A DNA stretch of 64,000 nt. Origin: Eledone cirrhosa. Lineage: Eukaryota. How positions within the stretch are numbered: the first letter of the stretch is position 1; every line of letters begins with the position of its first letter. A program made the translations under genes and the position numbers. Below the pieces are notes generated by a model that worked only from the letters and a program-made list of their open reading frames with translations, did not search any database and had not been told where the DNA came from. The stretch lies in NCBI GenBank assembly GCA_964016885.1, contig OZ024743.1:378634001-378698000 (forward strand), read 5' to 3'. Positions 14,503-63,233 of the stretch are shown one piece after another.

Positions 14503-14553
14503 ACAAAAGACTTCCAATATTGAGTTGTGCTCCCACCTCACCATCAGTAAATG

Positions 14554-16184: not shown

Positions 16185-16321
16185 TATTTGCATTGAAGTC
16201 ATATACCGTTTCCACCAAAGATATTTTTTGAAACTGGGCCCAGCTGCTGATAGTCCATAATATGTATACATAACAAGATGGATAAATGAATTCAACATTG
16301 CATGGAAAGTTCCAAAACCAC
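16185..16321 (-). CDS. ELOVL7: ELOVL1/7-type elongase, penultimate coding exon (137 bp)
   Basis: Absent from the ORF track; read manually as (G)[45 protein letters not shown], with the ELO motifs NxxxHxxMYxYY and WWKxYxTxxQ. Acceptor tttctatttccag, donor gtaagt. Phase 1 start and phase 0 end fit both neighbouring exons. Confidence 0.93.
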
Positions 16322-17131
16322 CTGGAAATAGAAAATCATTAAATAGCTTTTTATCTTAATGTAATTTTCAGATTTTGCAATAATGATGTTTTCTTTAAAA
16401 GGGCAGATCTGACTGTATAGGAAAGTAGAGGAAAGGACTATGAAAGCTATAAATGAATGGAAGAGGGGGGGGGGGGGAGGGCTCTAGGGCCAAAGAGTAA
16501 AGGGAGTGAGAAGGAGGGAGAGTGATAGGCTCTGGGCCTAGGGCGCGGTGGTGTTGGGGTTGTGCCATGCAGACAACGGCCAGCAACACCCACTGCAACA
16601 GCCACTCCACCTCTCGGGGTTCCTTCCTCAGATGGGCTGCTGACATTCCGATCTTGCAGAGGAGCTCGGCAGTAAGGATGTAAAATGTGTCTAATTATTA
16701 TAAGTTCAGGTATGGCTATGTGGTTAAAAAGTTCACTTCGTAACCACATGGTATTCGGTTCTATTCCACTGCATGACACCATAGGTTGACCAATGTCTTG
16801 TAAATGAATTTGTAAAGAAGCCCATCGTGTGTTTGTGTTTATTCTTTCTACATTTTACATCACAGTATTCCAATACTCAGTTGTTAGACGTGCAAGGATT
16901 CATATATTACTTAATAATAGAAAAAAATGTGAGGTTTGGTGTCAGGAAGTGCGTCCTACAATGCCTCAAGAAAGTCTCGCCCAACCAATGCCAGCATGGG
17001 AAAACTGACATAAAACAGACGCTGAACTATAAGAAAATTTAAAGATCATCCAAGGGAGTTAACTATGCCGCCTAGTAGCAAATACGGCAAGTAATTTGCA
17101 AGGGGAGTAACTACTAGGGGTTTATAATAAT

Positions 17132-17318
17132 TGTTTCTACTTTTTGGCACAAGGCCAGCAATTACTCAGTGTATTACTGGTACTTTATTTTATCGACCCC
17201 GTAAGGATGAAAGGCAAAGTTAACCTCGGCGGGATTTGAACTCAGATCATAAAGTGACCTAACTCTATGCTTCAAAGCATGGTCTCCGACTCTCTACCGA
17301 TACTGCCAATTCACTGCC
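17132..17318 (-). mobile_element. tRNA-derived SINE with 18-bp target-site duplication
   Basis: Minus strand head ggcagtgaattggcagtatcggtagag..gagttcaaatcccgcc (boxes A/B). TSD ctaggggtttataataat at 17114-17131 and 17319-17336. Confidence 0.88.
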
Positions 17319-17344
17319 CTAGGGGTTTATAATAATAATAATAA

Positions 17345-20300
17345 TAATGAAATTATTGTGTAGTGCTCAGGTGCACTACAACTCATCAAAGGTGCATGTA
17401 TAGTACATAGAATAATGTACAAATGTCAGGAAAGTGAATAGTGTATGAGTCATGATATACATGTGTGCGTGTGAATGGAGGGGGAGTATTAGGTGTAGTG
17501 TTGGTGAATCTCAGGAAGCATGGAGGTTTTAAAGGGTGCAGTGTCTTGACAGCTAACAACTTATGCCGGGAGTTTTTTCCATGCTTCAGCAACTCTGAGC
17601 ATGAAAAAATGTTTCCGAAAGTCATGGGAGATGTGCTGTTTTCTCACTTTGTTGGCATGCCCACGTGTGTTAGACACAAGGAAATCAAAAAGGTACTCAG
17701 GGTTGTTGTTGGCAAGATGGTTAATAATTTTGTGGGTGTTTACCAAGTCAGTTGCCAGACGTCGGGGCTTCAATGTATCCATGCCCAGGGAAGTAAGGCG
17801 TTCAGAGTATGGTAGGTTCAGAGGATGGAGGGTATTCGCTTGGTTGCATATATCTGACCAGTTTCCAGGCAGTCAATGTTCTGAGCAAGATAGGGGTTCC
17901 AGACTGGTGATGCAAATTCTAAGTGTGGCCGCACCATAGCCATGTACAGCCTTAAATAGATAGCTGGAGAGCGGCTAACAAAAGTCTTGCTGAGTGATGC
18001 TAAGACATCCTCAGCCCTTTTGACAATTTTAGAGACGTGCTTCGGCCAACGCAAATCACTGCTGACCGTAATGCCCAGGTCACGTTCACAAGAAGACTTC
18101 TTGATATTAGTGTTGTGGAGGGAGTATGTGGACGCTGGGTTTTTACTCCCAAAATGCATGGTGATACACTTGTCCACAGCTAGCTTGAGTTGCCAGTCTG
18201 AGATCCATTGTTGCATTGTGTCCAGGTCAGACTGCAAGCAAGATCTATAGTGTTCAGGATCTGTCCTTTTTATCTCAAGGTACAGCTTGATGTCATCTGC
18301 GTACTTTAGTACTGTGGCATTCTTTAAGTTGGCATCTATGTCATTAATATATGCCACAAACAAAAGGGGCCAAGAACAGATCCCTGTGGTACACCAGATG
18401 ACATCTCATATGGTGAGGAATGCTGTCCCAGAACCGTGACTACCTCTCTTCGACTGAGAATGAAGGACTTCAACCAGTTAAAAAGATCATCCTTCACACC
18501 CATTGCAGAGAGTTTTGCCATAAGTCTTTTGTGTGGCACAGAATTGAAAGCTTTCGCAAAGTCAAGGTAAACAACATCCACCCATGAGCCGCCATCAGTG
18601 ATCCGGGTGATGTCTTCAAGAAACTTGATAATTTGATCTCAGCAGATGGAGTTGGGGATAAATCCAAATTGCGAGGGCCGGATAAGACTGTGAGAGTTCC
18701 AGAAGTTCCAAAGTGTTTCTCTGACACAGGATTCCATCAGTTTGGCAATGCAACTAGTAAGACTGACTGGACGATAGTTCACAGGTGATGTATGGTCACC
18801 CTTTTTGAACAGAGGAATGACACTGGCAGTTTTCCACTGTTCTGGAGTAGCACCGTTGTTCAGACAGAATTGGAAGAAGCGTGATAGCTGGTGCAGAAGG
18901 AAGTACCCACCACATTTGAGAAGCAGGTACATAACACCATCAAGACCAGGAGAGGCATGGTTGCGTTTATTTTTAAGGCGATGTTGCAGCATTGCAGGTG
19001 TAAATTCCATAGTTGTAATAGAATCCGATGTCATAGGTCGTGGAGACGGTACACTCTGGTCTTCAATAGTGAAAATGCCTGCATAGCATTCAGCAATGAG
19101 TTCTGCGCATTCCTTGGGGTCGTCAGTAACCTGGCTTGTGTGGGAATTGCGAAGAGGACCAACTGGAGAGTGAGGCCTCTGCTTTGAGTGAACATACTTC
19201 CAGAACACCTTACTGTCAGGGCTGGTTGCTATGCGCTGCTCAAATTGAAGCACTGCCTTTTTTGTCACCTGCTTGAGATGGTTGGATGATTTATTTCGTT
19301 TTTTCCTATTGATATCTGACTTATGCAGTTTGTACTCACGTTCAGCATTACAACGTTCTTTTCTGGCAAGACGGACTGCTGCAGTCTCCCAAATTGCACT
19401 TTACGGATGTTTTTTCTGCTTACATGGTACCGATGCTGCACATGTTGTCCATATTTAGTTCAGCATGTTCTGGAGTACAGTGTTGACATCTCCAGAGTCG
19501 TAAAACTCAAGCCAGTTTGGATGTTGCAGCTCGGTGCAGTAACAGTTCCAGTCTGCTTTATTCCAGTCAAAGTGAGCAGCTTGGAGATGGTTGTGGTTCT
19601 TGTTACTGCCCATGAGGGATAGATTGGCAATGATCATAGCATGATCAGTGTCACCTAAAGGTTCCTCAGTAGTAACACTAATAACTGTTTCAGGAGTAGT
19701 GGTGAAGAGCAGATCCAAAGTGTTGCCACCTCTTGTTGGGGAGGTGACTACTTGGGACCAGTTCGAGTCCAGCACTAGCTCAAGGAAATCATTTGCACTT
19801 TGCGCCAATGAAAGGTTTCCCAGTCACTCTCAGGGTGATTGAAGTCCCCTGCAATAAAAACCTAAGTGGCTGTTTTCCTGGCAGCAGATCTGAGGATATC
19901 ACAAAGTTGAGTGTCCTGATGGTAATTAGGGGGACGGTAAACGACTCCAAGTAGCAGTGTTGACAGAGTCATACGCAGAAAAATACCTCTTGCTGCGATT
20001 GGTTCAAATCAACACAAGGAATTGCTGAAAAATTTGACCGAACGTAGACCATTACACCACCACGACAACGATTAATGTGGTCTTTACAAAACAAGTTGTA
20101 GCCAGTTATGCTGAAAACCCCATCACAGAGTAAGGAATGTGCCCATGTTTCTGTGACTGTAATGAAGTCAGAGTCGATACTTTTGACGTAGGAGTCAAAA
20201 AGATGTATCTTATTGAATAGACTACGTGCATTCAAGGACAACAATTTGTACCTTGATTCCAGTCTATGATTATGTGCAGGGGATGGCAGATTGTTCTGAT

Positions 20301-20490
20301 TTAGTTTCCCAGAGTGTTTTCAATTTTTTTTTATTGTCAGTTGTTGTGGCTACAGTGTTTTCAGACCAGCTGGTATCTCTTTTCCATGATTCGCCAGCCT
20401 TAATAAACTTCCATATCTGCCCATCATCTCGTAGGCTGAAGCTTTCATGTTCTGCCAAGTTGCACGTCGAAGAATGTTCGACCACATTGT
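17345..20490 (-). mobile_element. CR1/L2-type LINE with nearly complete but disrupted ORF2 (APE + RT), end of a probable ORF1, 3' UTR and (ATT)n tail
   Basis: LSLNARSL..ITVTETW, GVYRPP, AGDFN, PTRGGNTLDL..DH (APE). NYRPVSLTS, QFGF, DVVYLDFAKAF, SGVPQGSVLGP, YADDIKLY, ERDLGI, RPHLEFASPVWNPY, NTRGH (RT and C-terminus). Several frameshifts. Confidence 0.93.
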
Positions 20491-20861
20491 CCAGGATTAT
20501 AATATTGTAGTAACGATAGTGATGGTCTGTGTATTATGAGAGAACGTTGACCCACATACAATGATATGTCTAGATAATGTGGGTCAACGTTCTCTCATAA
20601 TACACAGACCACCACAAACACTACAATGATATGTCTAGATAATGTGGGTCAACGTTCTCTCATAATACACAGACCACCACAAACACTACAATGATATGTC
20701 TAGATAATGTGGGTCAACATTCTCTCATAATACACAGACCACCACAAACAATACAATGATATGTCTAGATAATGTGGGTCAACGTTCTCTCATAATACAC
20801 AGACCACCACAAAAACTACAATGATATGTCTAGATAATGTGGGTCAACGTTCTCTCATAAT
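20486..20861. repeat. Short array of a 65-bp monomer related to the 67-bp satellite: one forward copy plus ~4.7 inverted copies
   Basis: Unit CTACAATGATATGTCTAGATAATGTGGGTCAACGTTCTCTCATAATACACAGACCACCACAAACA starts at 20621, 20686, 20751 and 20816. Its reverse complement aligns with the satellite monomer (catatcattgtag...gtggtggtctgt.tatt...cacatt). Confidence 0.88.
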
Positions 20862-20897
20862 ATATATATATATATATATATATAAATATATGTGTGT

Positions 20898-21158
20898 AGA
20901 AGTTCAATTTAAATTGTTGGGATACAACAAGCAAATATTTTTATAACTGATATAAAGCACTCAACAAATAATTGGAGTAGGGAGCTTCCAACAGTAATGG
21001 TTGCATTCTTTAAGAGTATGTCAATATTTATTTATAAAACTGCTCTATATTATATTTTATCTGATGAAAGCACACCATAATTTAACTTGGTGTCCTTGAA
21101 ATATGTATAATGAAATAAATATGGTTTTATAAATATAGTTTCCATTTGTTAATATCGT
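20898..21158 (+). mobile_element. Short non-coding hammerhead-bearing element (Penelope pLTR / retrozyme-like) inserted in (TA)n
   Basis: ~260 bp bounded by TA runs, with the same order of conserved words as 10330-10604. Its 3' end also resembles the fragment at 4831-4860. Confidence 0.55.
21053..21117 (+). ncRNA. Minimal type I hammerhead ribozyme motif (second, diverged copy)
   Basis: Stem I UAUUUUAU/AUGAAAUA; CUGAUGA (21061-21067); stem II AAG-C-ACACCA/UGGUGU-C-CUU; GAAA (21098-21101); same stem III; predicted cleavage after 21109. Stem II covaries with the copy at 10493. Confidence 0.77.
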
Positions 21159-21167
21159 ATATATATA

Positions 21168-22760
21168 TCATCATCACCGTTTTACGTCCGTTCTTCCACG
21201 CTAGCATGGGTTAGACGGGTTGTCCTGTTGTGGGCAGTGTCTGGTCGGCTGACCATGCCTTGCTCATACAGGAACTGATTTGGCTTGATTTCTACAGCTG
21301 GATGCCCTTCCTAACACCAACCTCATTTACAGTGAGTGCTGGGTGCTTTTTCGTGGCGCCTACACGTCCACTTTACAGTGTGGGCTGGGTGCTTTTTTTC
21401 CGTGGCACCTCCACGACCACCTTGCGGTGGAGGGTGTGGGGGCATATTGTCTATATGCTTCAGCTTGTACCCATGGGAGGTCGGGTACTCTGTATTACTG
21501 CGTGACGCCAGAGGTCACGGTCGTGTGTCATTGTCTTTGAGAGGTGTAATTGGGTAAGGTCGGCTTTTATCACCTCATCCCAGGTCATCTTGGGTCTCCC
21601 CACTCCGCGGTTTCCATCAACTTCTAGTGCTCTGCACCTTTTTATGCAGCTATCATCCTTCATACGCATCACATGTCCATACCAGCGCAACCGCCTCTCC
21701 TGCACACAGCATTTGATTCCTCTTATGCTCAGTCTCTCTCTCAATTCATTTATGCTTTGTCGTTCACGTATATTATTGTTACACATCCATCGGAGCATGC
21801 AGGCTTCGTTTCTCTCCAATCTACGTAAGTCTTCCACCTTCAGCGCCCAGGTCTCGCTACCATGCAACATCGCTGTTCGGATACACGCATCATACAGTCT
21901 GCCTTTCATTCTGAGGGAGAAGCCTTTCGCAGCTAGCAGTGGTAGTAGTTCCCTAAACTTCTTCCATCCCGTTCTTACCCTAGTTATTGCACTTTCTGAA
22001 CACCCACCTCCGTTGCTAATTCGGTCACCTAGGTAGCAGAAGCTGTCAACTGTTTCTACAGGGCTCTCCCAGAGATTGGTGGTACTTGTTTCCTGTGGCT
22101 GTTTGCTGTCTCAGCACAGCTGCTGCATGTGAATCCTACATTCTTAATTAAGCTTCCTGAGATCCCGCTACATCTCTTGTGTACCCATTGTTTGCATTTG
22201 GGGCAGAGAATGGAGTTCCTACCTACACCTTTCCTACATACTGAGCAAGGCCATTTCTCTGAGGGGATCTGGGTTCTGTTTTCTCGTCTACTTACAAGGA
22301 CCTTAGTCTTTGTCATGTTGACTTTGAGACCCTTTCTTTCTAGTCCCTGCTTCCAGGTTTGGAATTTCTTCTCTAGTTCTACCATAGATTCAGCTATGAG
22401 TGCGAGGTCATCAGCATACAGGAGTTCCCATGGGCATCCGGTCTTAAACTCCTCCGTTATTGCCTGCAGGACTATGATGAACAGGAGAGGGCTAAGAACA
22501 GAGCCCTGGTGGACCCCAACCTGTACGCTAAATTCCTCGCTATACTCATTGCTAATCCTAACTTTGCTGACTGCTCCCCTATACATGGCTTGTACCGCTT
22601 TCACAAGCCATTCATCTACTCCTAGTTTTCTAAGAGCCCACCAGATTACAGCACGTGGAACTCTGTCAAAGGCTTTCTCAAGGTCGACAAATGCCAAGTA
22701 GAGTGGCTTACTTTTAGCTAGGTACTTTTCCTGTAATTGCCTCACAAGGAAGAGGGCATC
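21168..22760 (-). mobile_element. RTE LINE subfamily A, 5'-truncated copy inserted in (TA)n
   Basis: ORFs 22056-22745 and 21460-21909 are nearly identical to those in 2560-3859. Has YADD, the C4HC3 finger, 3' UTR and (GAT)n tail. Confidence 0.94.
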
Positions 22761-22820
22761 TTATATATATATCTTATATATATATATTGGAAAATGTGGG
22801 AGATCCTTGGTACAGTTAGG

Positions 22821-22970
22821 TATATTTGAAAAAAAGGAAAAGAATGACTTCACTTGTAGTGTTAAATAATTTGATTTAATTTTATAATATTATGAGTTGG
22901 TAGAGATAGTAAGTTCTTTAAAATTCTTCCCACCAAAGTTAAGTCATTCTTTGCTCTTTTTTCAAATATA
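22821..22970. mobile_element. MITE-like element with ~30-bp imperfect terminal inverted repeats
   Basis: tatatttgaaaaaaaggaaaagaatgactt versus aagtcattctttgctcttttttcaaatata. TA at both ends. Confidence 0.55.
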
Positions 22971-22976
22971 TATATA

Positions 22977-23025
22977 TTGTAGTGCACCTGAGAATTGTAC
23001 ACAATAATTTTCTTTTTTCATTATT
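22977..23025 (+). mobile_element. Extreme 3' tip of the CR1-type LINE family
   Basis: ttgtagtgcacctgagaattgtacacaataattt matches the reverse complement of ~7446-7476 and ~17350-17381. Confidence 0.7.
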
Positions 23026-23035
23026 TCATATCATT

Positions 23036-23223
23036 AAGGCGGTGGATTGGCAGTAACGGTAGAGAGTTGGAAGCCATGCTTTGAAGCATAGAGTTACCTC
23101 CCTTTATGATCTGAGATCAAATCCCGCCAAGGATAACTTTGCCTTTCATCCTTACGGGGTCGATAAAATAAGGTACCAGTAATGCACTGGGTATTTGCTG
23201 GCCTTGTGCAAAAAGTAGAAACA
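23036..23223 (+). mobile_element. tRNA-derived SINE with 16-bp TSD, abutting the first satellite monomer
   Basis: ggcggtggattggcagtaacggtagag..gagatcaaatcccgcc; same family as 17132-17318. TSD attatttcatatcatt at 23020-23035 and 23224-23239. Confidence 0.88.
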
Positions 23224-23230
23224 ATTATTT

Positions 23231-26200
23231 CATATCATTGTGGTGGTAGTGGTTGTGTATTATGAGAGCATTGACTCACATTGTCCAGGTATATATCATT
23301 GTAGAAGTGGTGGTGGTCTGTTTATTAGGAGACAGGGTTCTCCCATATTGTCCAGGAATATATCATTGTAGTAGTGGTGGTGGTCTGTCTATTAGGAGAC
23401 AGGGTTCTCCTACATTGTCCAGGTATATATCATTGTAGTAGTGGTGGTGGTCTGTCTATTAGGAGACAGGGTTCTCCTACATTGTCCAGGTATATAACAT
23501 TGTAGAAGTGGTGGTGGTCTGTCTATTAGGAGACAGGGTTCTCCTACATTGTCCAGGTATATATCATTGTAGTAGTGGTGGTCTGTCTATTAAGAGACAG
23601 GGTTCTCCCATATTGTCCAGGTATATATCATTGTAGAAGTGGTGGTGGTCTGTTTATTAGGAGACAGGGTTCTCCCATATTGTCCAGGTATATATCATTG
23701 TAGTAGTGGTGGTGGTCTGTCTATTAGGAGACAGGGTTCTCCTACATTGTCCAGGTATATATCATTGTAGTAGTGATGGTGGTCTGTTTATTAGGAGACA
23801 GGGTTTTTCTACATTGTCCAGGTATATATCATTGTAGTAGTGGTGGTGGTCTGTTTATTAGGAGACAGGGTTCTCCTACATTGTCCAGGTATATATCATT
23901 GTAGAAGCGGTGGTGGTCTGTTTATTAGGAGACAGGGTTCTCCTACATTGTCCAGGTATATATCATGGTAGTAGTGGTGGTGGTCTGTCTATTAGGAGAC
24001 AGGGTTCTACCATATTGTCCAGGTATATATCATTGTAGTAGTGATGGTGGTCTGTTTATTAGGAGACAGGGTCTCCCATATTGTCCAGGTATATATCATG
24101 GTAGTAGTGATGGTGGTCTGTTTATTAGGAGACAGGGTCTCCCATATTGTCCAGGTATATATCATGGTAGTAGTGGTGGTGGTCTGTCTATTAGGAGACA
24201 GGGTTCTACCATATTGTCCAGGTATATATCATTGTAGTAGTGGTGGTGGTCTGTCTATTAGGAGACAGGGTTCTCCTACATTGTCCAGGTATATAACATT
24301 GTAGTAGTGATGGTGGTCTGTCTATTAGGAGACAGGGTTCTCCTACATTGTCCAGGTATATATCATTGTAGTAGTGGTGGTGGTCTGTCTATTAGGAGAC
24401 AGGGTTCTCCCATATTGTCCAGGTATATATCATTGTAGTAGTGGTGGTGGTCTGTTTATTAGGAGACAGGGTTCTCCTACATTGTCCAGGTATATATCAT
24501 TGTAGTAGTGGTGGTGGTCTGTCTATTAGGAGACAGGGTTCTCCTACATTGTCCAGGTATATATCATTGTAGTAGTGGTGGTGGTCTGTCTATTAGGAGA
24601 CAGGGTTCTCCTACATTGTCCAGGTATATATCATTGTAGTAGTGGTGGTGGTCTGTTTATTAGGAGACAGGGTTCTCCTACATTGTCCAGGTATATATCA
24701 TTGTAGAAGTGGTGGTGGTCTGTTTATTAGGAGACAGGGTTCTCCCATATTGTCCAGGTATATATCATTGTAGAAGTGGTGGTGGTCTGTTTATTAGGAG
24801 ACAGGGTTCTCCTACATTGTCCAGGTATATATCATTGTAGTAGTGATGGTGGTCTGTTTATTAGGAGACAGGGTTTTTCTACATTGTCCAGGTATATATC
24901 ATTGTAGTAGTGGTGGTGGTCTGTTTATTAGGAGACAGGGTTCTCCTACATTGTCCAGGTATATATCATTGTAGAAGCGGTGGTGGTCTGTTTATTAGGA
25001 GACAGGGTTCTCCTACATTGTCCAGGTATATATCATGGTAGTAGTGGTGGTGGTCTGTCTATTAGGAGACAGGGTTCTACCATATTGTCCAGGTATATAT
25101 CATTGTAGTAGTGATGGTGGTCTGTTTATTAGGAGACAGGGTTCTACCATATTGTCCAGGTATATATCATTGTAGTAGTGATGGTGGTCTGTTTATTAGG
25201 AGACAGGGTCTCCCATATTGTCCAGGTATATATCATGGTAGTAGTGATGGTGGTCTGTTTATTAGGAGACAGGGTCTCCCATATTGTCCAGGTATATATC
25301 ATGGTAGTAGTGGTGGTGGTCTGTCTATTAGGAGACAGGGTTCTACCATATTGTCCAGGTATATATCATTGTAGTAGTGGTGGTGGTCTGTCTATTAGGA
25401 GACAGGGTTCTCCTACATTGTCCAGGTATATAACATTGTAGTAGTGATGGTGGTCTGTCTATTAGGAGACAGGGTTCTCCTACATTGTCCAGGTATATAT
25501 CATTGTAGTAGTGGTGGTGGTCTGTCTATTAGGAGACAGGGTTCTCCCATATTGTCCAGGTATATATCATTGTAGTAGTGGTGGTGGTCTGTTTATTAGG
25601 AGACAGGGTTCTCCTACATTGTCCAGGTATATATCATTGTAGTAGTGGTGGTGGTCTGTCTATTAGGAGACAGGGTTCTCCTACATTGTCCAGGTATATA
25701 TCATTGTAGTAGTGGTGGTGGTCTGTCTATTAGGAGACAGGGTTCTCCTACATTGTCCAGGTATATATCATTGTAGTAGTGGTGGTGGTCTGTTTATTAG
25801 GAGACAGGGTTCTCCTACATTGTCCAGGTATATATCATTGTAGAAGTGGTGGTGGTCTGTTTATTAGGAGACAGGGTTCTCCTACATTGTCCAGGTATAT
25901 ATCATTGTAGTAGTGGTGGTGGTCTGTCTATTAGGAGACAGGGTTCGCCTACATTGTCCAGGTATATATCATTGTAGAAGTGGTGGTGGTCTGTTTATTA
26001 GGAGACAGGGTTCTCCTACATTGTCCAGGTATATATCATTGTAGTAGTGGTGGTGGTCTGTCTATTAGGAGACAGGGTTCTCCTACATTGTCCAGGTATA
26101 TATCATTGTAGTAGTGGTGGTGGTCTGTTTATTAGGAGACAGGGTTCTCCTACATTGTCCAGGTATATATCATTGTAGTAGTGGTGGTGGTCTGTTTATT

Positions 26201-53200: not shown

Positions 53201-56200
53201 ATTGTAGTAGTGGTGGTGGTCTGTCTATTAGGAGACAGGGTTCTCCTACATTGTCCAGGTATATAACATTGTAGAAGTGGTGGTGGTCTGTCTATTAGGA
53301 GACAGGGTTCTCCCATATTGTCCAGGTATATATCATTGTAGAATGGTGGTGGTCTGTTTATTAGGAGACAGGGTTCTCCTACATTGTTCAGGTATATAAC
53401 ATTGTAGAAGTGGTGGTGGTCTGTTTATTAGGAGACAGGGTTCTCCCATATTGTCCAGGTATATAACATTGTAGAAGTGGTGGTGGTCTGTTTATTAAGA
53501 GACAGGGTTCTCCTACATTGTCCAGGTATATATCATTGTAGTAGTGGTGGTGGTCTGTCTATTAGGAGACAGGGTTCTCCCATATTGTCCAGGTATATAT
53601 CATTGTAGAATGGTGGTGGTCTGTTTATTAGGAGACAGGGTTCTCCTACATTGTTCAGGTATATAACATTGTAGAAGTGGTGGTGGTCTGTTTATTAAGA
53701 GACAGGGTTCTCCTACATTGTCCAGGTATATATCATTGTAGTAGTGGTGGTGGTCTGTCTATTAGGAGACAGGGTTCTCCTACATTGTCCAGGTATATAT
53801 CATTGTAGTAGCGGTGGCGGTCTGTCTATTAGGAGACAGGGTTCTCCCATATTGTCCAGGTATATATCATAGTAGAAGTGGTGGTGGTCTGTCTATTAGG
53901 AGACAGGGTACTCCTACATTGTCCAGCTATATATCATTGTAGTAGTGGTGGTGGTCTGTCTATTAGGAGACAGGGTTCTCCCATATTGTCCAGGTATATA
54001 TCATTGTAGTAGTGGTGGTGGTCTGTTTATTAGGAGACAGGGTTCTCCTACATTGTCCAGGTATATATCATTGTAGTAGTGGTGGTGCTCTGTCTATTAG
54101 GAGACAGGGTTCTCCTACATTGTCCAGGTATATATCATTGTAGAAGTGGTGGTGGTCTGTCTATTAGGAGACAGGGTTTTCCTACATTGTCCAGGTATAT
54201 ATCATTGTAGTAGTGGTGGTGGTCTGTCTATTAGGAGACAGGGTTCTCCTACATTGTCCAGGTATATATCATTGTAGTAGTGGTGGTGGTCTGTCTATTA
54301 GGAGACAGGGTTCTCCTACATTGTCCAGGTATATATCATTGTAGTAGTGGTGGTGGTCTGTCTATTAGGAGACAGGGTTTTCCTACATTGTCCAGGTATA
54401 TATCATTGTAGTAGTGGTGGTGGTCTGTCTATTAGGAGACAGGGTTCTCCTACATTGTCCAGGTATATAACATTGTAGATGTGTTGGTGGTCTGTTTATT
54501 AGGAGACAGGGTTCTCCTACATTGTCCAGGTATATATCATTGTAGTAGTGGTGGTGGTCTGTCTATTAGGAGACAGGGTTCTCCTACATTGTCCAGGTAT
54601 ATATCATTGTAGTAGTGGTGGTGGTCTGTCTATTAGGAGACAGGGTTCTCCTACATTGTCCAGGTATATATCATTGTAGAATGGTGGTGGTCTGTTTATT
54701 AGGAGACAGGGTTCTCCTACATTGTTCAGGTATATATCATTGTAGTAGTGGTGGTGGTCTGTTTATTAGGAGACAGGGTTCTCCTACATTGTCCAGGTAT
54801 ATATCATTGTAGTAGTGGTGGTGGTCTGTCTATTAGGAGACAGGGTTCTCCCATATTGTCCAGGTATATATCATTGTAGTAGTGGTGGTGGTCTGTCTAT
54901 TAGGAGACAGGGTACTCCTACATTGTCCAGGTATATATCATTGTAGAAGTGGTGGTGGTCTGTTTATTAGGAGACAGGGTTCTCCCATATTGTCCAGGTA
55001 TATAACATTGTAGAAGTGGTGGTGGTCTGTTTATTAAGAGACAGGGTTCTCCTACATTGTCCAGGTATATATCATTGTAGTAGTGGTGGTGGTCTGTCTA
55101 TTAGGAGACAGGGTTCTCCCATATTGTCCAGGTATATATCATTGTAGAATGGTGGTGGTCTGTTTATTAGGAGACAGGGTTCTCCTACATTGTTCAGGTA
55201 TATAACATTGTAGAAGTGGTGGTGGTCTGTTTATTAAGAGACAGGGTTCTCCTACATTGTCCAGGTATATATCATTGTAGTAGTGGTGGTGGTCTGTCTA
55301 TTAGGAGACAGGGTTCTCCTACATTGTCCAGGTATATATCATTGTAGTAGCGGTGGCGGTCTGTCTATTAGAAGACAGGGTTCTCCCATATTGTCCAGGT
55401 ATATATCATAGTAGAAGTGGTGGTGGTCTGTCTATTAGGAGACAGGGTACTCCTACATTGTCCAGCTATATATCATTGTAGTAGTGGTGGTGGTCTGTCT
55501 ATTAGGAGACAGGGTTCTCCCATATTGTCCAGGTATATATCATTGTAGTAGTGGTGGTGGTCTGTTTATTAGGAGACAGGGTTCTCCTACATTGTCCAGG
55601 TATATATCATTGTAGAAGTGGTGGTGGTCTGTCTATTAGGAGACAGGGTTTTCCTACATTGTCCAGGTATATATCATTGTAGTAGTGGTGGTGGTCTGTC
55701 TATTAGGAGACAGGGTTTTCCTACATTGTCCAGGTATATATCATTGTAGTAGTGGTGGTGGTCTGTCTATTAGGAGACAGGGTTCTCCTACATTGTCCAG
55801 GTATATATCATTGTAGTAGTGGTGGTGGTCTGTCTATTAGCAGACAGGGTTCTCCTACATTGTCCAGGTATATATCATTGTAGTAGTGGTGGTGGTCTGT
55901 CTATTAGGAGACAGGGTTCTCCTACATTGTCCAGGTATATATCATTGTAGTAGTGGTGGTGGTCTGTCTATTAGGAGACAGGGTTTTCCTACATTGTCCA
56001 GGTATATATCATTGTAGTAGTGGTGGTGGTCTGTCTATTAGGAGACAGGGTTCTCCTACATTGTCCAGGTATATAACATTGTAGAAGTGGTGGTGGTCTG
56101 TTTATTAGGAGACAGGGTTCTCCTACATTGTCCAGGTATATATCATGGTAGTAGTGGTGGTGGTCTGTCTATTAGGAGACAGGGTTCTCCCATATTGTCC

Positions 56201-59200
56201 AGGTATATATCATTGTAGTAGTGGTGGTGGTCTGTCTATTAGGAGACAGGGTTCTCCTACATTGTTCAGGTATATAACATTGTAGAAGTGGTGGTGGTCT
56301 GTTTATTAAGAGACAGGGTTCTCCTACATTGTCCAGGTATATATCATTGTAGTAGTGGTGGTGGTCTGTCTATTAGGAGACAGGGTTCTCCTACATTGTC
56401 CAGGTATATATCATTGTAGTAGTGGTGGTGGTCTGTTTATTAGGAGACAGGGTTCTCCTACATTGTCCAGGTATATATCATTGTAGTAGTGGTGGTGGTC
56501 TGTCTATTAGGAGACAGGGTTCTCCTACATTGTCCAGGTATATAACATTGTAGAAGTGGTGGTGGTCTGTTTATTAGGAGACAGGGTTCTCCTACATTGT
56601 CCAGGTATATATCATGGTAGTAGTGGTGGTGGTCTGTCTATTAGGAGACAGGGTTCTCCCATATTGTCCAGGTATATATCATTGTAGTAGTGGTGGTGGT
56701 CTGTCTATTAGGAGACAGGGTACTCCTACATTGTCCAGGTATATATCATTGTAGAAGTGGTGGTGGTCTGTTTATTAGGAGACAGGGTTCTCCCATATTG
56801 TCCAGGTATATAACATTGTAGAAGTGGTGGTGGTCTGTTTATTAAGAGACAGGGTTCTCCTACATTGTCCAGGTATATATCATTGTAGTAGTGGTGGTGG
56901 TCTGTCTATTAGGAGACAGGGTTCTCCCATATTGTCCAGGTATATATCATTGTAGAATGGTGGTGGTCTGTTTATTAGGAGACAGGGTTCTCCTACATTG
57001 TTCAGGTATATAACATTGTAGAAGTGGTGGTGGTCTGTTTATTAAGAGACAGGGTTCTCCTACATTGTCCAGGTATATATCATTGTAGTAGTGGTGGTGG
57101 TCTGTCTATTAGGAGACAGGGTTCTCCTACATTGTCCAGGTATATATCATTGTAGTAGCGGTGGCGGTCTGTCTATTAGAAGACAGGGTTCTCCCATATT
57201 GTCCAGGTATATATCATAGTAGAAGTGGTGGTGGTCTGTCTATTAGGAGACAGGGTACTCCTACATTGTCCAGCTATATATCATTGTAGTAGTGGTGGTG
57301 GTCTGTCTATTAGGAGACAGGGTTCTCCCATATTGTCCAGGTATATATCATTGTAGTAGTGGTGGTGGTCTGTTTATTAGGAGACAGGGTTCTCCTACAT
57401 TGTCCAGGTATATATCATTGTAGAAGTGGTGGTGGTCTGTCTATTAGGAGACAGGGTTTTCCTACATTGTCCAGGTATATATCATTGTAGTAGTGGTGGT
57501 GGTCTGTCTATTAGGAGACAGGGTTTTCCTACATTGTCCAGGTATATATCATTGTAGTAGTGGTGGTGGTCTGTCTATTAGGAGACAGGGTTCTCCTACA
57601 TTGTCCAGGTATATATCATTGTAGTAGTGGTGGTGGTCTGTCTATTAGCATACAGGGTTCTCCTACATTGTCCAGGTATATATCATTGTAGTAGTGGTGG
57701 TGGTCTGTCTATTAGGAGACAGGGTTCTCCTACATTGTCCAGGTATATATCATTGTAGTAGTGGTGGTGGTCTGTCTATTAGGAGACAGGGTTTTCCTAC
57801 ATTGTCCAGGTATATATCATTGTAGTAGTGGTGGTGGTCTGTCTATTAGGAGACAGGGTTCTCCTACATTGTCCAGGTATATAACATTGTAGAAGTGGTG
57901 GTGGTCTGTTTATTAGGAGACAGGGTTCTCCTACATTGTCCAGGTATATATCATGGTAGTAGTGGTGGTGGTCTGTCTATTAGGAGACAGGGTTCTCCCA
58001 TATTGTCCAGGTATATATCATTGTAGTAGTGGTGGTGGTCTGTCTATTAGGAGACAGGGTTCTCCTACATTGTTCAGGTATATAACATTGTAGAAGTGGT
58101 GGTGGTCTGTTTATTAAGAGACAGGGTTCTCCTACATTGTCCAGGTATATATCATTGTAGTAGTGGTGGTGGTCTGTCTATTAGGAGACAGGGTTCTCCT
58201 ACATTGTCCAGGTATATATCATTGTAGTAGTGGTGGTGGTCTGTTTATTAGGAGACAGGGTTCTCCTACATTGTCCAGGTATATATCATTGTAGTAGTGG
58301 TGGTGGTCTGTCTATTAGGAGACAGGGTTCTCCTACATTGTCCAGGTATATAACATTGTAGAAGTGGTGGTGGTCTGTTTATTAGGAGACAGGGTTCTCC
58401 TACATTGTCCAGGTATATATCATGGTAGTAGTGGTGGTGGTCTGTCTATTAGGAGACAGGGTTCTCCCATATTGTCCAGGTATATATCATTGTAGAATGG
58501 TGGTGGTCTGTTTATTAGGAGACAGGGTTCTCCTACATTGTTCAGGTATATAACATTGTAGAAGTGGTGGTGGTCTGTTTATTAAGAGACAGGGTTCTCC
58601 TACATTGTCCAGGTATATATCATTGTAGTAGTGGTGGTCTGTCTATTAGGAGACAGGGTTCTCCTACATTGTCCAGGTATATATCATTGTAGTAGTGGTG
58701 GTGGTCTGTTTATTAGGAGACAGGGTTCTCCCATATTGTCCAGGTATATATCATTGTAGAAGTGGTGGTGGTCTGTTTATTAGGAGACAGGGTTCTCCTA
58801 CATTGTCCAGGTATATATCATTGTAGTAGTGGTGGTGGTCTGTCTATTAGGAGACAGGGTTCTCCTACATTGTCCAGGTATATATCATTGTAGTAGTGGT
58901 GGTGGTCTGTCTATTAGGAGACAGGGTTTTCCTACATTGTCCAGGTATATATCATTGTAGTAGTGGTGGTGGTCTGTCTATTAGGAGACAGGGTTCTCCT
59001 ACATTGTCCAGGCATATATCATTGTAGTAGTGGTGGTGGTCTGTTTATTAGGAGACAGGGTACTCCTACATTGTCCAGGTATATATCATTGTAGAAGTGG
59101 TAGTGGTCTGTCTATTAGGAGACAGGGTACTCCTACATTGTCCAGGTATATATCATTGTAGAAGTGGTGGTAGTCTGTTTATTAGGAGACAGGGTTCTCC

Positions 59201-62200
59201 TACATTGTCCAGGTATATATCATTGTAGAAGTGGTGGTGGTCTGTCTATTAGGAGACAGGGTTCTCTTACATTGTCCAGGTATATATCATTGTAGAAGTG
59301 GTGGTGGTCTGTTTATTAGGAGACAGGGTTCTCCTACATTGTCCAGGTATATATCATTGTAGTAGTGGTGGTGGTCTGTTTATTAGGAGACAGGGTTCTC
59401 CTACATTGTCCAGGTATATATCATTGTAGAAGTGGTGGTGGTCTGTCTATTAGGAGACAGGGTCTCCCATATTGTCCAGGTATATATCATTGTAATAGTG
59501 GTGGTGGTCTGTCTATTAGGAGACAGGGTCTCCCATATTGTCCAGGTATATATCATTGTAATAGTGGTGGTGGTCTGTCTATTAGGAGACAGGGTCTCCC
59601 ATATTGTCCAGGTATATATCATTGTAGTAGTGGTGGTGGTCTGTCTATTAGGAGAAAGGGTTCTCCTACATTGTCCAGGTATATTTCATTGTAGAAGTGG
59701 TGGTGGTCTGTCTATTAGCAGACAGGGTCTCCCATATTGTCCAGGTATATATCATGGTAGTAGTGATGGTGGTCTGTCTATTAGGAGACAGGGTTCTCCC
59801 ATATTGTCCAGGTATATATCATTGTAGTAGTGGTGGTGGTCTGTCTATTAGGAGACAGGGTTCTCCTACATTGTCCAGGTATATATCATTGTAGAAGTGG
59901 TGGTGGTCTGTCTATTAGGAGACAGGGTTCTCCCATATTGTCCAGGTATATATCATTGTAGTAGTGGTGGTGGTCTGTCTATTAGGAGACAGGGTCTCCC
60001 ATATTATCCAGGTATATATCATTGTAATAGTGGTGGTTGTCTGTCTATTAGGAGACAGGGTCTCCCATATTGTCCAGGTATATATCATTGTAATAGTGGT
60101 GGTGGTCTGTCTATTAGGAGACAGGGTCTCCCATATTGTCCAGGTATATATCATTGTAATAGTGGTGGTGGTCTGTCTATTAGGAGACAGGGTTCTCCTA
60201 CATTGTCCAGGTATATATCATTGTAGTAGTGGTGGTGGTCTGTCTATTAGGAGACAGGGTTCTCCTACATTGTCCAGGTATATATCATTGTAGTAGTGGT
60301 GGTGGTCTGTCTATTAGGAGACAGGGTTCTCCTACATTGTCCAGGTATATATCATTGTAGTAGTGGTGGTGGTCTGTCTATTAGGAGACAGGGTTCTCCT
60401 ACATTGTCCAGGTATATATCATTGTAGTAGTGGTGGTGGTCTGTCTATTAGGAGACAGGGTTCTCCTACATTGTCCAGGTATATATCATTGTAGTAGTGG
60501 TGGTGGTCTGTCTATTAGAAGACAGGGTCTCCCATATTGTCCAGGTATATATCATGGTAGTAGTGATGGTGGTCTGTCTATTAGGAGACAGGGTTCTCCC
60601 ATATTGTCCAGGTATATATCATTGTAGAAGTGGTGGTGGTCTGTTTATTAGGAGACAGGGTTCTCCTACATTGTCCAGGTATATATCATTGTAGTAGTGG
60701 TGGTGGTGGTCTGTCTATTAGGAGACAGGGTTCTCCCATATTGTCCAGGTATATATCATTGTAGAAGTGGTGGTGGTCTGTCTATTAGGAGACAGGGTTC
60801 TCCTACATTGTCCAGGTATATATCATGGTAGTAGTGGTGGTGGTCTGTCTATTAGGAGACAGGGTTCTCCCATATTGTCCAGGTATATATCATTGTAGAA
60901 TGGTGGTGGTCTGTTTATTAGGAGACAGGGTTCTCCTACATTGTCCAGGTATATAACATTGTAGAAGTGGTGGTGGTCTGTTTATTAGGAGACAGGGTTC
61001 TCCCATATTGTCCAGGTATATAACATTGTAGAAGTGGTGGTGGTCTGTTTATTAAGAGACAGGGTTCTCCTACATTGTCCAGGTATATATCATTGTAGTA
61101 GTGGTGGTGGTCTGTCTATTAGGAGACAGGGTTCTCCCATATTGTCCAGGTATATATCATTGTAGAATGGTGGTGGTCTGTTTATTAGGAGACAGGGTTC
61201 TGCTACATTGTCCAGGTATATATCATTGTAGTAGTGGTGGTGGTCTGTTTATTAGGAGACAGGGTTCTCCCATATTGTCCAGGTATATATCATTGTAGTA
61301 GTGGTGGTGGTCTGTCTATTAGGAGACAGGGTTCTCCTACATTGTCCAGGTATATATCATTGTAGTAGTGGTGGTGGTCTGTGTATTAGGAGACAGGGTT
61401 CTCCTACATTGTCCAGGTATATATCATTGTAGTAGTGGTGGTGGTCTGTCTATTAGGAGACAGTGTTCTCCCATATTGTCCAGGTATATATCATAGTAGA
61501 AGTGGTGGTGGTCTGTCTATTAGGAGACAGGGTACCCCTACATTGTCCAGCTATATATCATTGTAGTAGTGGTGGTGGTCTGTCTATTAGGAGACAGGGT
61601 ACCCCTACATTGTCCAGGTATATATCATGGTAGTAGTGGTGGTGGTCTGTCTATTAGGAGACAGGGTTCTCCTACATTGTCCAGGTATATATCATTGTAG
61701 TAGTGGTGGTGGTGGTCTGTCTATTAGGAGACAGGGTTCTCCCATATTGTCCAGGTATATATCATTGTAGAAGTGGTGGTGGTCTGTCTATTAGGAGACA
61801 GGGTTCTCCTACATTGTCCAGGTATATAACATCGTAGTAGTGATGGTGGTCTGTCTATTAGGAGACAGGGTTCTCCCATATTGTCCAGGTATATATCATT
61901 GTAGTAGTGATGGTGGTCTGTTTATTAGGAGACAGGGTTCTCCCATATTGTCCAGGTATATATCATTGTAGAAGTGGTGGTGGTCTGTTTATTAGGAGAC
62001 AGGGTTCTCCCATATTGTCCAGGTATATATCATTGTAGAAGTGGTGGTGGTCTGTTTATTAGGAGACAGGGTTCTCCCATATTGTCCAGGTATATAACAT
62101 TGTAGAAGTGGTGGTGGTCTGTTTGTTAGGAGACAGGGTTCTCCCATATTGTCCAGGTATATATCATTGTAGAAGTGGTGGTGGTCTGTTTATTAGGAGA

Positions 62201-62720
62201 CAAGGTTCTCCTACATTGTCCAGGTATATATCATTGTAGAAGTGGTGGTGGTCTGTGTATTAGGAGACAGGGTTCTCCCATATTGTCTAGGTATATAACA
62301 TTGTAGAAGTGGTGGTGGTCTGTTTGTTAGGAGACAGGGTTCTCCCATATTGTCCAGGTATATATCATTGTAGAAGTGGTGGTGGTCTGTCTATTAGGAG
62401 ACAGGGTTCTCCTACATTGTCCAGGTATATATCATTGTAGAAGTGGTGGTGGTCTGTGTATTAGGAGACAGGGTTCTCCCATATTGTCCAGGTATATATC
62501 ATTGTAGTAGTGGTGGTGGTCTGTGTATTAGGAGACAGGCTTCTCCCATAGTGTCCAGGTATATCTCATTGTAGTAGTGGTGGTGGTCTGTTTATTAGGA
62601 GACAGTGTCCTCCTACATTGTCCAGGTATATATCATTGTAGTGATCAGTGAATTAGGAGACAGAGTTACCCCACATTGTCCAGAAATATATCATTGTGGT
62701 AGTGATGGGGGTGGTCTGTA
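23231..62720. repeat. Giant 67-bp tandem repeat (satellite), ~39.5 kb, ~590 copies, inside the elongase intron
   Basis: Consensus ATTGTCCAGGTATATATCATTGTAG(T/A)AGTGGTGGTGGTCTGT(C/T)TATTAGGAGACAGGGTTCTCC(TAC/CAT), repeated head-to-tail with no foreign insertion seen. First and last monomers are degenerate. Confidence 0.98.
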
Positions 62721-62744
62721 TAATTCTTCCTGCTTTTATTTATT

Positions 62745-62850
62745 TCTTCTTTGCCCACTTCTTCCTGAGAGGGTCAAGGGGGCAGAGTCCTCAAACATTC
62801 CTTCCAGTGGGTCCTGTTAGAAGCAACTGTCTCCAAATGATCCAACTGGA
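62745..62850 (-). mobile_element. 3' fragment of the Expander-like RTE family seen at 12470-12905
   Basis: cttcctgagagggtcaagggggcagagtcctcaaacattccttccag..agaagca..tctccaaatga aligns to the reverse complement of 12795-12900. Confidence 0.7.
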
Positions 62851-63013
62851 TCCCCAAGCTAGACTAACCAAGATCATGGATGTTATAGAAGGAAAAGAGT
62901 CTTAACGTTTTGGATGTTGGACATTCATTAGGAGAAAGAATGAGAAACAGACAAGAGTAAGAAACGAAAGGAAGAAAATCCATGTGTCTGTGTGTTTAGC
63001 CAGCTATTATATA

Positions 63014-63095
63014 TACAGGGTGTCCCTAAAAATGTATACATACTTCAACATCATTCTAATAAAAGTGCGTATACATTTTTGGAGGACATCCAGAG
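63014..63095. mobile_element. Tiny Tc1/mariner-type MITE
   Basis: tacagggtgtccctaaaaatgtatac ... gtatacatttttggaggacatccag imperfect TIRs. CAGGGTGT terminus preceded by TA. Confidence 0.6.
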
Positions 63096-63127
63096 ATAAA
63101 GAAAAAGTTTAAAAATGAAGCGTTTAC

Positions 63128-63233
63128 CTGGAACAAATTTTACTCCAAACCACCAAGATACTGGCATTATACCATGATGGAAGACATGAAGGAAAGATAC
63201 TTGATTCAATTTCTTTCTCAAAATAAAGAATAT
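63128..63233 (-). CDS. ELOVL7: ELOVL1/7-type very-long-chain fatty acid elongase, internal coding exon (106 bp) with histidine box
   Basis: Translates [35 protein letters not shown](G): ELO-family QxxFLHxxHH motif. Acceptor ttctattacag before 63233, donor gtaaac after 63128. Ends in phase 1, matching the next exon. Upstream exons lie beyond the window end. The symbol means ELOVL1/7-like; exact orthology was not tested. Confidence 0.92.

What the first reader, a model, noticed from the sequence alone, without database searches (positions are those of the whole stretch)
16322..63127. 46.8-kb elongase intron of which ~84% is one homogeneous 67-bp satellite
Seen: phase-compatible exons at 63128-63233 and 16185-16321 bracket ~590 tandem monomers. 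The flanking 23 kb is saturated with insertions, yet no TE interrupts the array. Inference: the expansion is recent or actively homogenised. If the gene is expressed, ~39 kb of satellite RNA is made with every transcript. This resembles satellite-filled gigantic introns such as those of the Drosophila Y fertility genes, and could act as a transcription-delay or expression-tuning VNTR in a lipid-metabolism gene.
Basis: partly seen in the sequence, partly recalled or inferred. Interest (0 to 1): 0.72.

Follow-up and report, generated by a model that had tools for sequence, protein, structure and literature searches.

The report
Satellite-filled intron in octopus-like elongase gene
A 39-kb run of 589 copies of a 67-base repeat fills one intron of an expressed fatty-acid elongase gene that lies in a chromosome region made mostly of such repeats, so it is likely a tolerated local repeat expansion, not a regulatory device.

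Summary
A 67-bp tandem array (23278-62642, 587-589 monomers, no gap over 74 bp) makes up 84.1% of a 46,806-bp intron. The intron lies between two minus-strand exons (63233-63128 and 16321-16185) of a 7-exon, 298-aa ELOVL7-like gene.

The gene is expressed.

The array variant is private to this locus: 192 of 192 genome-wide hits of a 37-mer fall inside the array. It belongs to a dispersed 61-71-bp satellite family. The array grew by recent block duplications (up to 37 monomers at 99.96% identity). Its core has none of a SINE-like repeat that has 6 copies in the flanks (9.6 expected).

Context makes it ordinary here. 74% of the surrounding 414 kb is tandem repeat, and the same intron is about 1.8-2.0 kb in three paralogs. 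Earlier scan notes report other satellite-filled introns in this octopus-like genome.

Nothing tested here supports a delay or tuning role. It is a new member of a known kind, of moderate to low interest.

The parts
15096..15368 (-). Exon VII: last coding exon (15368-15099, 90 aa) plus stop TAG 15098-15096. The 3'UTR runs on to at least 14000.
   Evidence: Pfam ELO positions 184-240. The sequence and acceptor are seen. The spliced X1 contig covers 14000-15368.
16185..16321 (-). Exon VI (137 nt), downstream of the giant intron
   Evidence: AG|exon|GT borders. ELO positions 141-182. The exact joint 16185|15368 is seen in X1 record 1.
16322..63127 (-). Intron V, 46,806 bp, GT...AG
   Evidence: Donor GTAAAC and acceptor TTTCCAG. 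The homologous intron is about 1.8-2.0 kb in three paralogs.
17132..17318 (-). tRNA-like SINE copy of very high genomic copy number, flanked by a direct repeat that I read by eye as its target-site duplication
   Evidence: Depth about 3 million in bins 16996-17423. It is 91% identical to the copy at 23038-23223. Sequence seen.
17456..20319 (-). Decayed LINE (endonuclease and reverse transcriptase frames)
   Evidence: Pfam RVT_1 at 17821-18405 (E 9e-10) and 18642-19400 (E 1e-3, weak). Exo_endo_phos at 19972-20319 is weak (E 8e-3, below the curated cut-off).
20471..20862 (-). Diverged mini-array of the same satellite family: 65-bp unit x 4.7 copies, inverted relative to the big array, plus about 1.3 monomers in the other orientation with a head-to-head junction near 20556
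   Evidence: TRF. 74% identity to the main array on the opposite strand. Sequence seen.
22059..22760 (-). Retroelement fragment (RT + PHD finger)
   Evidence: Pfam RVT_1 E 2e-23 and PHD E 3e-7
23038..23223 (+). tRNA-like SINE inserted in the outermost partial monomer, flanked by a perfect 16-bp duplication (23020-23035 and 23224-23239)
   Evidence: duplication identical; sequence
23278..62642 (+). 67-bp satellite array of 587-589 monomers, uninterrupted. Degenerate edge monomers reach about 23230 and about 62722.
   Evidence: The variant is private to this locus.
63128..63233 (-). Exon V (106 nt), carrying the HxxHH box, upstream of the giant intron
   Evidence: AG|exon|GT borders. ELO positions 105-137. 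87% identical to P0001 residues 125-163.

Best explanation
A locus-private 67-bp satellite array of 39.4 kb fills intron V of an expressed ELOVL7-like gene, and it is likely a selectively tolerated local expansion, not a functional element.

Inferred history: an ancient intron of about 2 kb first took up retroelements and a short seed of a dispersed 61-71-bp satellite family. The seed then likely grew by repeated unequal exchange or replication slippage of multi-monomer blocks. This would have homogenised the core, kept it free of transposon insertions, and left older, diverged monomers at the edges.

The array is predicted to be harmless to splicing. In the transcribed orientation it has no donor-like and no acceptor-like sites. 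It would therefore be transcribed as part of the pre-mRNA and removed with the intron.

The gene lies in a distal chromosome domain that is mostly satellite, where such arrays fill much of the non-coding space.
For: Shown:
- Array anatomy.
- Private variant: 192 of 192 genome-wide exact hits of a 37-mer lie in the array.
- Dispersed family: related arrays at 72-81% identity on C1, C2, C9, C21 and C23, plus solo monomers and micro-arrays.
- Divergence: mean pairwise monomer difference 3.99 of 67. There is no regular higher-order repeat.
- Block duplications: 37 monomers at 99.96%, 28 at 99.89%, 17 at 99.82%. In all, 313 of 588 monomers lie in near-identical duplicated blocks of 8 or more monomers.
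- Edges: the last bin averages 5.9 differences from consensus, against about 2.6 overall.
- A SINE-like repeat has 6 merged copies in 24.6 kb of non-array sequence and 0 in the array. 9.6 are expected, P about 7e-5.
- A SINE with a target duplication sits in the outermost monomer.
- The homologous intron is about 1.8-2.0 kb in three paralogs.
- Expression: X1 record 1 (2,254 nt) has the exact VII|VI joint. Its alignment leaves exon VI after 6 letters (TTCCAG) that are shared by the intron end and the end of exon V. A further 668 letters lie off the stretch, so 674 letters precede exon VI. That equals 487 nt of upstream CDS plus a 5'UTR of about 187 nt.
- Relatives P0001 and P0002 read through the V|VI join.
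- Sense strand: 0 sites within 2 mismatches of CAGGTAAGT, against 575 in antisense. There are 0 polypyrimidine-CAG acceptor-like sites on either strand.
- Region: 74% tandem repeat over 414 kb. 8 of 18 samples in the distal 10 Mb are wholly satellite, against 2 of 22 elsewhere on C4 (Fisher P 0.025).
Against: - The exon V to exon VI joint was not read directly.
- No run is on record as RNA. X1 is judged to be transcript data only because its contig is spliced.
- Array length rests on the assembly alone. The gene-bearing piece of about 310 kb is joined to C4 across a 200-N gap and starts and ends inside satellites.
- 222 monomers carry AATAAA in the sense orientation. They could cause premature polyadenylation, so 'harmless' is not shown.
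- The argument from orientation rests on a single array.
- No population or cross-species data were available, so neutrality is inferred, not tested.
Confidence: 0.72

Rival explanations
1. The array is a functional VNTR. Its length would set a transcription delay (about 39 kb of extra elongation) or tune expression or isoform choice of the elongase, for example through intronic polyadenylation at the AATAAA-bearing monomers or through local heterochromatin.
For: The array must be transcribed with the gene if exons V and VI are joined. 222 of 588 monomers carry AATAAA in the sense orientation. The block duplications predict length polymorphism. A second, 99%-homogeneous 66-bp array lies about 750 bp upstream of the start-codon exon.
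Against: No test here shows any effect. A full-length spliced mRNA contig exists. Arrays of this size fill much of the non-coding space of the region whatever the gene. Three paralogs manage with an intron of about 2 kb. No hexamer-independent polyadenylation context was examined.
Confidence: 0.1
2. It is an instance of regional 'sequence stuttering', as described for introns of chicken dot-chromosome genes. On this view a domain-wide instability expands local sequences inside introns, and the elongase intron is one victim.
For: The domain is 74% tandem repeat, with many different private units of 22-96 bp. Arrays stay out of the exons. Earlier scan notes report the same pattern in other genes of this genome (not checked here). 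[quoted passage not shown]
Against: The paper defines stuttering by local origin from formerly unique intron or exon sequence. This monomer belongs to a dispersed family with arrays on at least five other contigs, plus solo monomers. No exon-derived copies were looked for in the array, and its monomer bears no evident likeness to the exons. Individual-to-individual variation was not testable.
Confidence: 0.13
3. The array's size or place is partly an assembly artefact: mis-expansion, collapse or mis-join in a hard-to-assemble satellite region.
For: The gene-bearing piece is scaffolded across a 200-N gap lying exactly at a satellite end. Both of its ends lie in satellites. The two flanking 49-bp arrays are in opposite orientation, as they would be if the piece had been flipped. 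Near-identical 2.5-kb internal blocks exist.
Against: The intron's two ends lie in one gap-free stretch. The window contains no N. Monomers differ by about 6% on average, and the longest near-identical block is 2.5 kb, shorter than usual long reads (inference; the sequencing technology is not known to me). Exons on both sides belong to one gene by Pfam order, by relatives and by the transcript contig. Flipping the piece would not change the intron.
Confidence: 0.05

Closest known systems
Satellite-containing gigantic introns of Drosophila Y-linked fertility genes kl-3 and kl-5 (Fingerhut et al. 2019, PMC6508621; abstract and passages read)
   Same: Tandem satellite DNA fills an intron of an expressed protein-coding gene. 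It must be transcribed and spliced out.
   Different: The Drosophila introns hold megabases of simple 5-bp repeats that make up over 99% of the locus. The genes are Y-linked and testis-specific, with dedicated RNA-binding proteins. Here there is one 47-kb intron with a complex 67-bp unit, in a 7-exon gene whose other introns are about 0.6-1.4 kb. No tissue data are available.
'Sequence stuttering' in introns of chicken dot-chromosome genes (Hron et al. 2026, PMC12954441; abstract and section 7, part 1, read)
   Same: Blocks of tens to hundreds of bases are expanded inside introns and stop at the exons. The genes lie in a repeat-dense chromosomal domain. The events appear recent.
   Different: Stuttering is defined by local origin from unique intron or exon sequence, and its tandems are imperfect. 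Here the unit is a regular satellite belonging to a dispersed genome-wide family. The animal group is also different.
Dispersed euchromatic or TE-linked satellite DNAs, such as Tribolium euchromatic tandem repeats (PMC4675708) and oyster satellites carried by Helentron elements (PMC7492417, PMC8268682). Search listings and abstract starts only.
   Same: One family occurs as solo monomers, short arrays and longer arrays scattered over chromosomes, some next to mobile elements.
   Different: No carrier element was shown here. Only 2 of 10 isolated loci have a SINE tail running directly into a monomer. The long arrays share no non-satellite flank.

Membership tests
ELO / ELOVL fatty-acid elongase (Pfam PF01151), ELOVL7-like | Match to the ELO profile above the curated cut-off, in the right order along the gene | tested here: met
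   Exons V, VI and VII score 39.5, 51.8 and 27.5 bits (cut-off 27) at profile positions 105-137, 141-182 and 184-240. Upstream exons were found with full-length relatives.
ELO / ELOVL fatty-acid elongase (Pfam PF01151), ELOVL7-like | Histidine box HxxHH (motif recalled from general knowledge) | tested here: met
   LHVFHH in exon V
ELO / ELOVL fatty-acid elongase (Pfam PF01151), ELOVL7-like | Closest solved relative is ELOVL7 | tested here: met
   Relative P0001 matches only human ELOVL7 (6Y7F) in the PDB, E 2.2e-94. This was tested on the relative, not on the window's own joined protein. True orthology among the ELOVL1/4/7 group was not resolved by a tree.
Satellite DNA (long homogeneous tandem array of a family) | Head-to-tail monomers in a long, uninterrupted array with high identity | tested here: met
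   587-589 monomers over 39.4 kb. 94% matches by TRF. Mean 2.58 differences from consensus.
Satellite DNA (long homogeneous tandem array of a family) | Family present at several genomic loci, with locus-specific variants | tested here: met
   Arrays at 72-81% identity on C1, C2, C9, C21 and C23. The 37-mer variant is private to this locus, 192 of 192 hits.
Sequence stuttering (Hron et al. 2026) | The repeat originates from formerly unique local intron or exon sequence | tested here: not met
   The monomer family is dispersed over many contigs. The definition was read.
Sequence stuttering (Hron et al. 2026) | Expansion confined to the intron, exons intact, in a repeat-dense chromosome domain | tested here: met
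Sequence stuttering (Hron et al. 2026) | Intron length varies between individuals | not testable with these tools
Drosophila-type intron gigantism | Megabase-scale introns of simple satellites making up over 99% of the locus, with a dedicated expression programme | tested here: not met
   The intron is 46.8 kb and the unit 67 bp. The criteria are from PMC6508621. No expression programme could be tested.
Hammerhead retrozyme or other structured-RNA repeat | Rfam-detectable ribozyme or RNA motif in the unit | tested here: not met
   0 matches at E up to 1 in 2 kb of the array
LINE 5'-monomer array | The array is continuous with the 5' end of a LINE, and the same pairing recurs at other copies | tested here: inconclusive
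   The mini-array at 20471-20862 lies just 5' of the decayed LINE. No other family array in the loci fetched shares LINE or any other non-satellite flank.

The most novel reading that the evidence does not exclude
Distal chromosome domains of this octopus-like genome behave like avian dot chromosomes. Genes survive there inside a sea of fast-turning private satellites, and intronic arrays persist only in the orientation that gives the pre-mRNA no splice-donor-like sites and a C/A-rich, G-poor sense strand. In this array the count is 0 donor-like sites in sense against 575 in antisense. If so, array orientation and length are under selection, and array length polymorphism could modulate output of a lipid-elongase gene.
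Probability: 0.12. Interest if true: 0.6.

Novelty: new member of a known kind. Interest (0 to 1): 0.36.

Why it matters
The locus is a clean, well-delimited example of an expressed animal gene that carries a 39-kb homogeneous satellite in one intron. The history is readable:
- an ancient intron of about 2 kb, as in the paralogs;
- old, diverged array edges with a SINE insertion;
- a young core built from block duplications;
- a variant private to this locus.

It adds a cephalopod-like case to the intron-confined repeat expansions described in flies and birds. It also offers a tractable locus for three questions: whether intronic array length varies between individuals, whether orientation is selected, and whether such arrays cost the gene anything. 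By itself it does not reveal a new mechanism.

Tried and rejected
- RNA runs: no RNA holder is listed.
- Retrozyme or structured RNA: no Rfam match in the array.
- Common carrier element: blastn of the window against 11 array loci gave no shared non-satellite flank next to the arrays. The only hits were dispersed SINE-like repeats and simple repeats.
- SINE-tail origin: a SINE (GAT)n tail runs directly into a monomer in only 2 of 10 isolated loci (L032, L038). L034 has about 118 bp in between. This is suggestive but not shown, because the SINE is very abundant.
- LINE 5'-monomer origin: unsupported beyond the single adjacency in the window.
- Regular higher-order repeat: none. The lag profile is flat apart from slight dips at lags 1-2, 27 and 54-56.
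- Conserved dyad symmetry in the monomer: weak and inconsistent across 9 family consensus units. Dropped.
- Paralog L001 as an exon probe: too distant.
- Telomere: no TTAGGG repeat in the last 3 kb of the contig or in the first 5 kb after the scaffold gap. 'Subtelomeric' is therefore not shown.
- Own-species protein in the large protein collection: not found. Only relatives at 59% and 56% identity were returned.
- Earlier scan notes matching this satellite by sequence, or lying near this place: none.
- Literature on cephalopod satellite DNA: searches 'octopus / satellite DNA / tandem repeats / intron' and 'cephalopod / satDNA' listed no paper on it. Only listings were seen.
Full report
**1. 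Observation**

Tandem Repeats Finder reports one array at 23278-62642 with period 67, 587.4 copies, 94% matches and 0% indels. Cutting at a 16-letter anchor gives 589 spacings within the array:
- 521 of 67 bp
- 48 of 66 bp
- 11 of 70 bp
- 4 of 74 bp
- 2 of 64 bp
- 1 of 68 bp and 1 of 58 bp

No spacing exceeds 74 bp, so no foreign sequence interrupts the core.

The two proposed exons are real. On the minus strand, 63233-63128 (106 nt) and 16321-16185 (137 nt) have AG|exon|GT borders. Joined, they give a single open frame with the elongase histidine box LHVFHH. The intron is 46,806 bp and the array 39,365 bp, which is 84.1%.

**2. The gene**

A Pfam scan of the whole genome places ELO matches on both exons and on an exon beyond the window end. 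Exon by exon, the matches are consecutive in the profile:
- exon V: positions 105-137
- exon VI: positions 141-182
- exon VII (15368-15099): positions 184-240

Two full-length relatives from other assemblies were used as probes: P0001 (294 aa) and P0002 (290 aa), 59% and 56% identical to exon VII. They define seven coding exons. Coordinates above 64000 lie beyond the window:

| Exon | Coordinates (minus strand) |
|---|---|
| I | 66994-66940 |
| II | 65990-65803 |
| III | 65184-65104 |
| IV | 64697-64641 |
| V | 63233-63128 |
| VI | 16321-16185 |
| VII | 15368-15099, then TAG |

The CDS is 894 nt, or 298 aa. Both relatives read straight through the V|VI join (...[14 protein letters not shown]...), so no coding exon is hidden in the intron. 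P0001 matches only human ELOVL7 among solved structures (6Y7F, E 2.2e-94).

The other introns are about 0.6-1.4 kb. In three paralogs of the same genome, an intron at the same position (after ...PGG or ...AGG) measures about 1.8-2.0 kb. The intron is therefore ancient and is about 25-fold inflated in this gene.

**3. Expression**

No run is labelled RNA. Run X1, however, holds a 2,254-nt contig that aligns as follows, all with no mismatches:
- window 14000-14316
- window 14453-15368
- window 16185-16327

The first two blocks are continuous in the record across a skipped repeat. The second and third blocks meet at the exact splice joint 15368|16185.

Beyond exon VI the alignment continues for only six letters (16322-16327, TTCCAG). 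The intron end shares these six letters with the end of exon V, and the seventh letter differs. This is what a V-VI junction predicts. An unspliced molecule would have kept aligning into the intron.

In all, 674 letters of the record precede exon VI. That equals the 487 nt of upstream CDS plus a 5'UTR of about 187 nt.

The V-VI join is therefore strongly supported but was not read. Runs X2-X4 give contigs that cross exon/intron borders, as genomic DNA does.

**4. The array itself**

- *Private variant.* A 37-mer of the consensus occurs 192 times in the 3.0-Gb genome, and all 192 are in this array.
- *Dispersed family.* Arrays with 61-71-bp units at 72-81% identity lie at these places:
  - C1, hits spread over about 95 kb near 40.2-40.3 Mb
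  - C1, near 206.5 Mb
  - C2, C9, C21 and C23

  Solo monomers and micro-arrays also occur. The DNA search skips very common words, so these counts are lower bounds.
- *Divergence.* The 588 aligned monomers differ from their consensus by 2.58 positions on average, and from each other by 3.99 of 67. 64 are identical to the consensus.
- *Block structure.* There is no regular higher-order repeat. The array is a patchwork of duplicated blocks: 37 monomers at 99.96% identity 3.76 kb apart, 28 at 99.89%, and 17 at 99.82%. In all, 313 of 588 monomers lie in near-identical duplicated blocks of at least 8 monomers.
- *Edges.* Edge monomers are more diverged (5.9 differences in the last bin). By eye they look like the family's older consensus.
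- *RNA motifs.* No Rfam motif is present.
- *CpG.* CpG is nearly absent: 29 observed against about 1,586 expected. The consensus unit itself has none.

**5. Flanks and transposons**

The 7.4 kb of non-array intron holds:
- a decayed LINE, with RT and weak endonuclease matches (17.5-20.3 kb, minus strand);
- an RT+PHD retroelement piece (22.06-22.76 kb);
- a tRNA-like SINE of extreme copy number (17132-17318; depth about 3 million);
- a second copy of that SINE (23038-23223), flanked by a perfect 16-bp duplication that includes the first letters of the outermost partial monomer.

A 65-bp x 4.7 mini-array of the same family lies inverted at 20557-20862. About 1.3 further monomers in the other orientation join it head to head.

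Another SINE-like repeat has 6 merged copies in the 24.6 kb of non-array window and none in the 39.4-kb array. 9.6 copies are expected, Poisson P about 7e-5. Those copies are only 75-87% alike over stretches of 55 bases or more. The result therefore shows only that the present core is younger than that old burst, or that turnover purges insertions.

**6. As transcribed**

The sense strand (minus) is A/C-rich: A 35%, C 28%, T 22%, G 14%.

| Feature | Sense | Antisense |
|---|---|---|
| Sites within 2 mismatches of CAGGTAAGT | 0 | 575 (one per monomer, CCAGGTATAT) |
| Polypyrimidine-CAG acceptor-like sites | 0 | 0 |
| AATAAA | 222 | 0 |

I infer that the array is tolerated because, in this orientation, it offers the spliceosome no competing splice donor. 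Whether the 222 AATAAA hexamers cause premature ends is open.

**7. Regional context**

The window is C4:378,634,001-378,698,000 of a 378,849,418-bp contig.

| Stretch | Tandem-repeat share (TRF score at least 300) | Main arrays |
|---|---|---|
| 200 kb proximal | 68.5% | 49-bp array of at least 103 kb; 27-bp array of 29.6 kb |
| Window | 62% | the 67-bp array |
| 150 kb distal | 87% | 66-bp array of 4.1 kb; 49-bp array of 124 kb |

- The 66-bp array is 99% homogeneous and lies about 750 bp upstream of exon I.
- The distal 49-bp array is the same satellite as the proximal one, in the opposite orientation. It runs toward the contig end.
- Over the whole 414 kb the tandem-repeat share is 74%.
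- The last 3 kb of the contig are the same satellite, with no TTAGGG repeat.

A 200-N gap lies exactly at the end of the proximal 49-bp array, at -94.6 kb. After the gap the sequence starts inside the 27-bp satellite. The gene-bearing piece of about 310 kb was thus placed by scaffolding. Flipping it would join the two 49-bp arrays. This affects the piece's placement, not the intron.

Of the 2-kb samples, 8 of 18 across the distal 10 Mb are wholly satellite, each with a different unit. Elsewhere on C4 the count is 2 of 22 (Fisher P 0.025).

Earlier notes of this scan describe other satellite-filled introns in this octopus-like genome. They are unchecked AI notes, and I did not test those loci.

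**8. Interpretation**

The best reading is passive. In a satellite-rich distal domain, a seed of a dispersed family inside an old intron expanded by unequal exchange of blocks. The array remains because it does not disturb splicing.

The delay or tuning idea is not excluded but has no support. The Drosophila Y comparison holds in kind only. Chicken 'sequence stuttering' shares the confinement to introns and the repeat-dense domain, but it is defined by local origin, which this dispersed family does not meet.

I found no paper on cephalopod satellite DNA in two searches (listings only).

**9. Verdict**

This is a new member of a known kind. Interest 0.36.

Noticed in passing
G000:C4, window coordinates -197.7 to -94.6 kb and +89.8 kb to the contig end (L042-L076, L041): Two arrays of one 49-bp satellite (at least 103 kb and at least 124 kb) flank the gene island in opposite orientations. 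A 200-N scaffold gap sits exactly at the end of the proximal array. Flipping the terminal piece of about 310 kb would make them one array, so the scaffold orientation may be wrong.
   Followed up: partly
Window coordinates 67746-71869 (beyond the window; L042): A 4.1-kb array of a 66-bp unit (62.5 copies, 99% matches) lies about 750 bp upstream of the start-codon exon of the same elongase gene. By eye it is unrelated to the 67-bp family.
   Followed up: no
Window coordinates -94.4 to -45.7 kb (L067-L072): A 27-bp satellite (TRF row of 29.6 kb, 1,096 copies, 96% matches at -75.3 to -45.7 kb) lies downstream of the gene. The assembled piece also begins in the same 27-bp unit, right after the gap.
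   Followed up: no
window 20471-20862: The mini-array of the family has a head-to-head inversion junction near 20556: about 1.3 monomers in one orientation, then 4.7 in the other. It lies directly 5' of a decayed LINE. The origin is unexplained.
   Followed up: partly
L032:415-650, L038:353-712: The (GAT)n tail of a very abundant SINE-like repeat of about 240 bp runs directly into a satellite monomer at two isolated loci. The monomer itself starts with a CAC/CAT-rich stretch. This is a possible SINE-tail origin of the family.
   Followed up: partly
window 17132-17318 and 23038-23223: Two copies (91% alike) of a tRNA-like SINE of extreme copy number. By eye, both are flanked by direct duplications that begin with ATTATT and are preceded by a similar sequence (...TGTAGTGCACCTGAG...CACAATAATTT). 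This suggests a preferred target or a composite element.
   Followed up: no
one search hit table (whole genome): All longer matches of the + strand query to other arrays of the family (C1, C2, C9, C21, C23) were on the minus strand. This may be an effect of the search skipping very common words rather than biology.
   Followed up: no
window 62940-63110: By eye, an inverted-repeat, MITE-like element (GGGTGTCCCTAAAAATGTATAC ... GTATACATTTTTGGAGGACATCC) lies between the array and exon V, within about 100 bp of the splice donor.
   Followed up: no
window 1993-3439 (+) and 4919-4993 (+): There is a second RT+PHD retroelement downstream of the gene. A tRNA match sits just at Rfam's gathering score (29.4 bits) and is probably SINE-derived.
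   Followed up: no
L001 (G000:C3:38227077-38230778): An intronless 283-aa ELO-family open frame of ELOVL3/6-like appearance, the best ELO match in the genome (235 bits).
   Followed up: no
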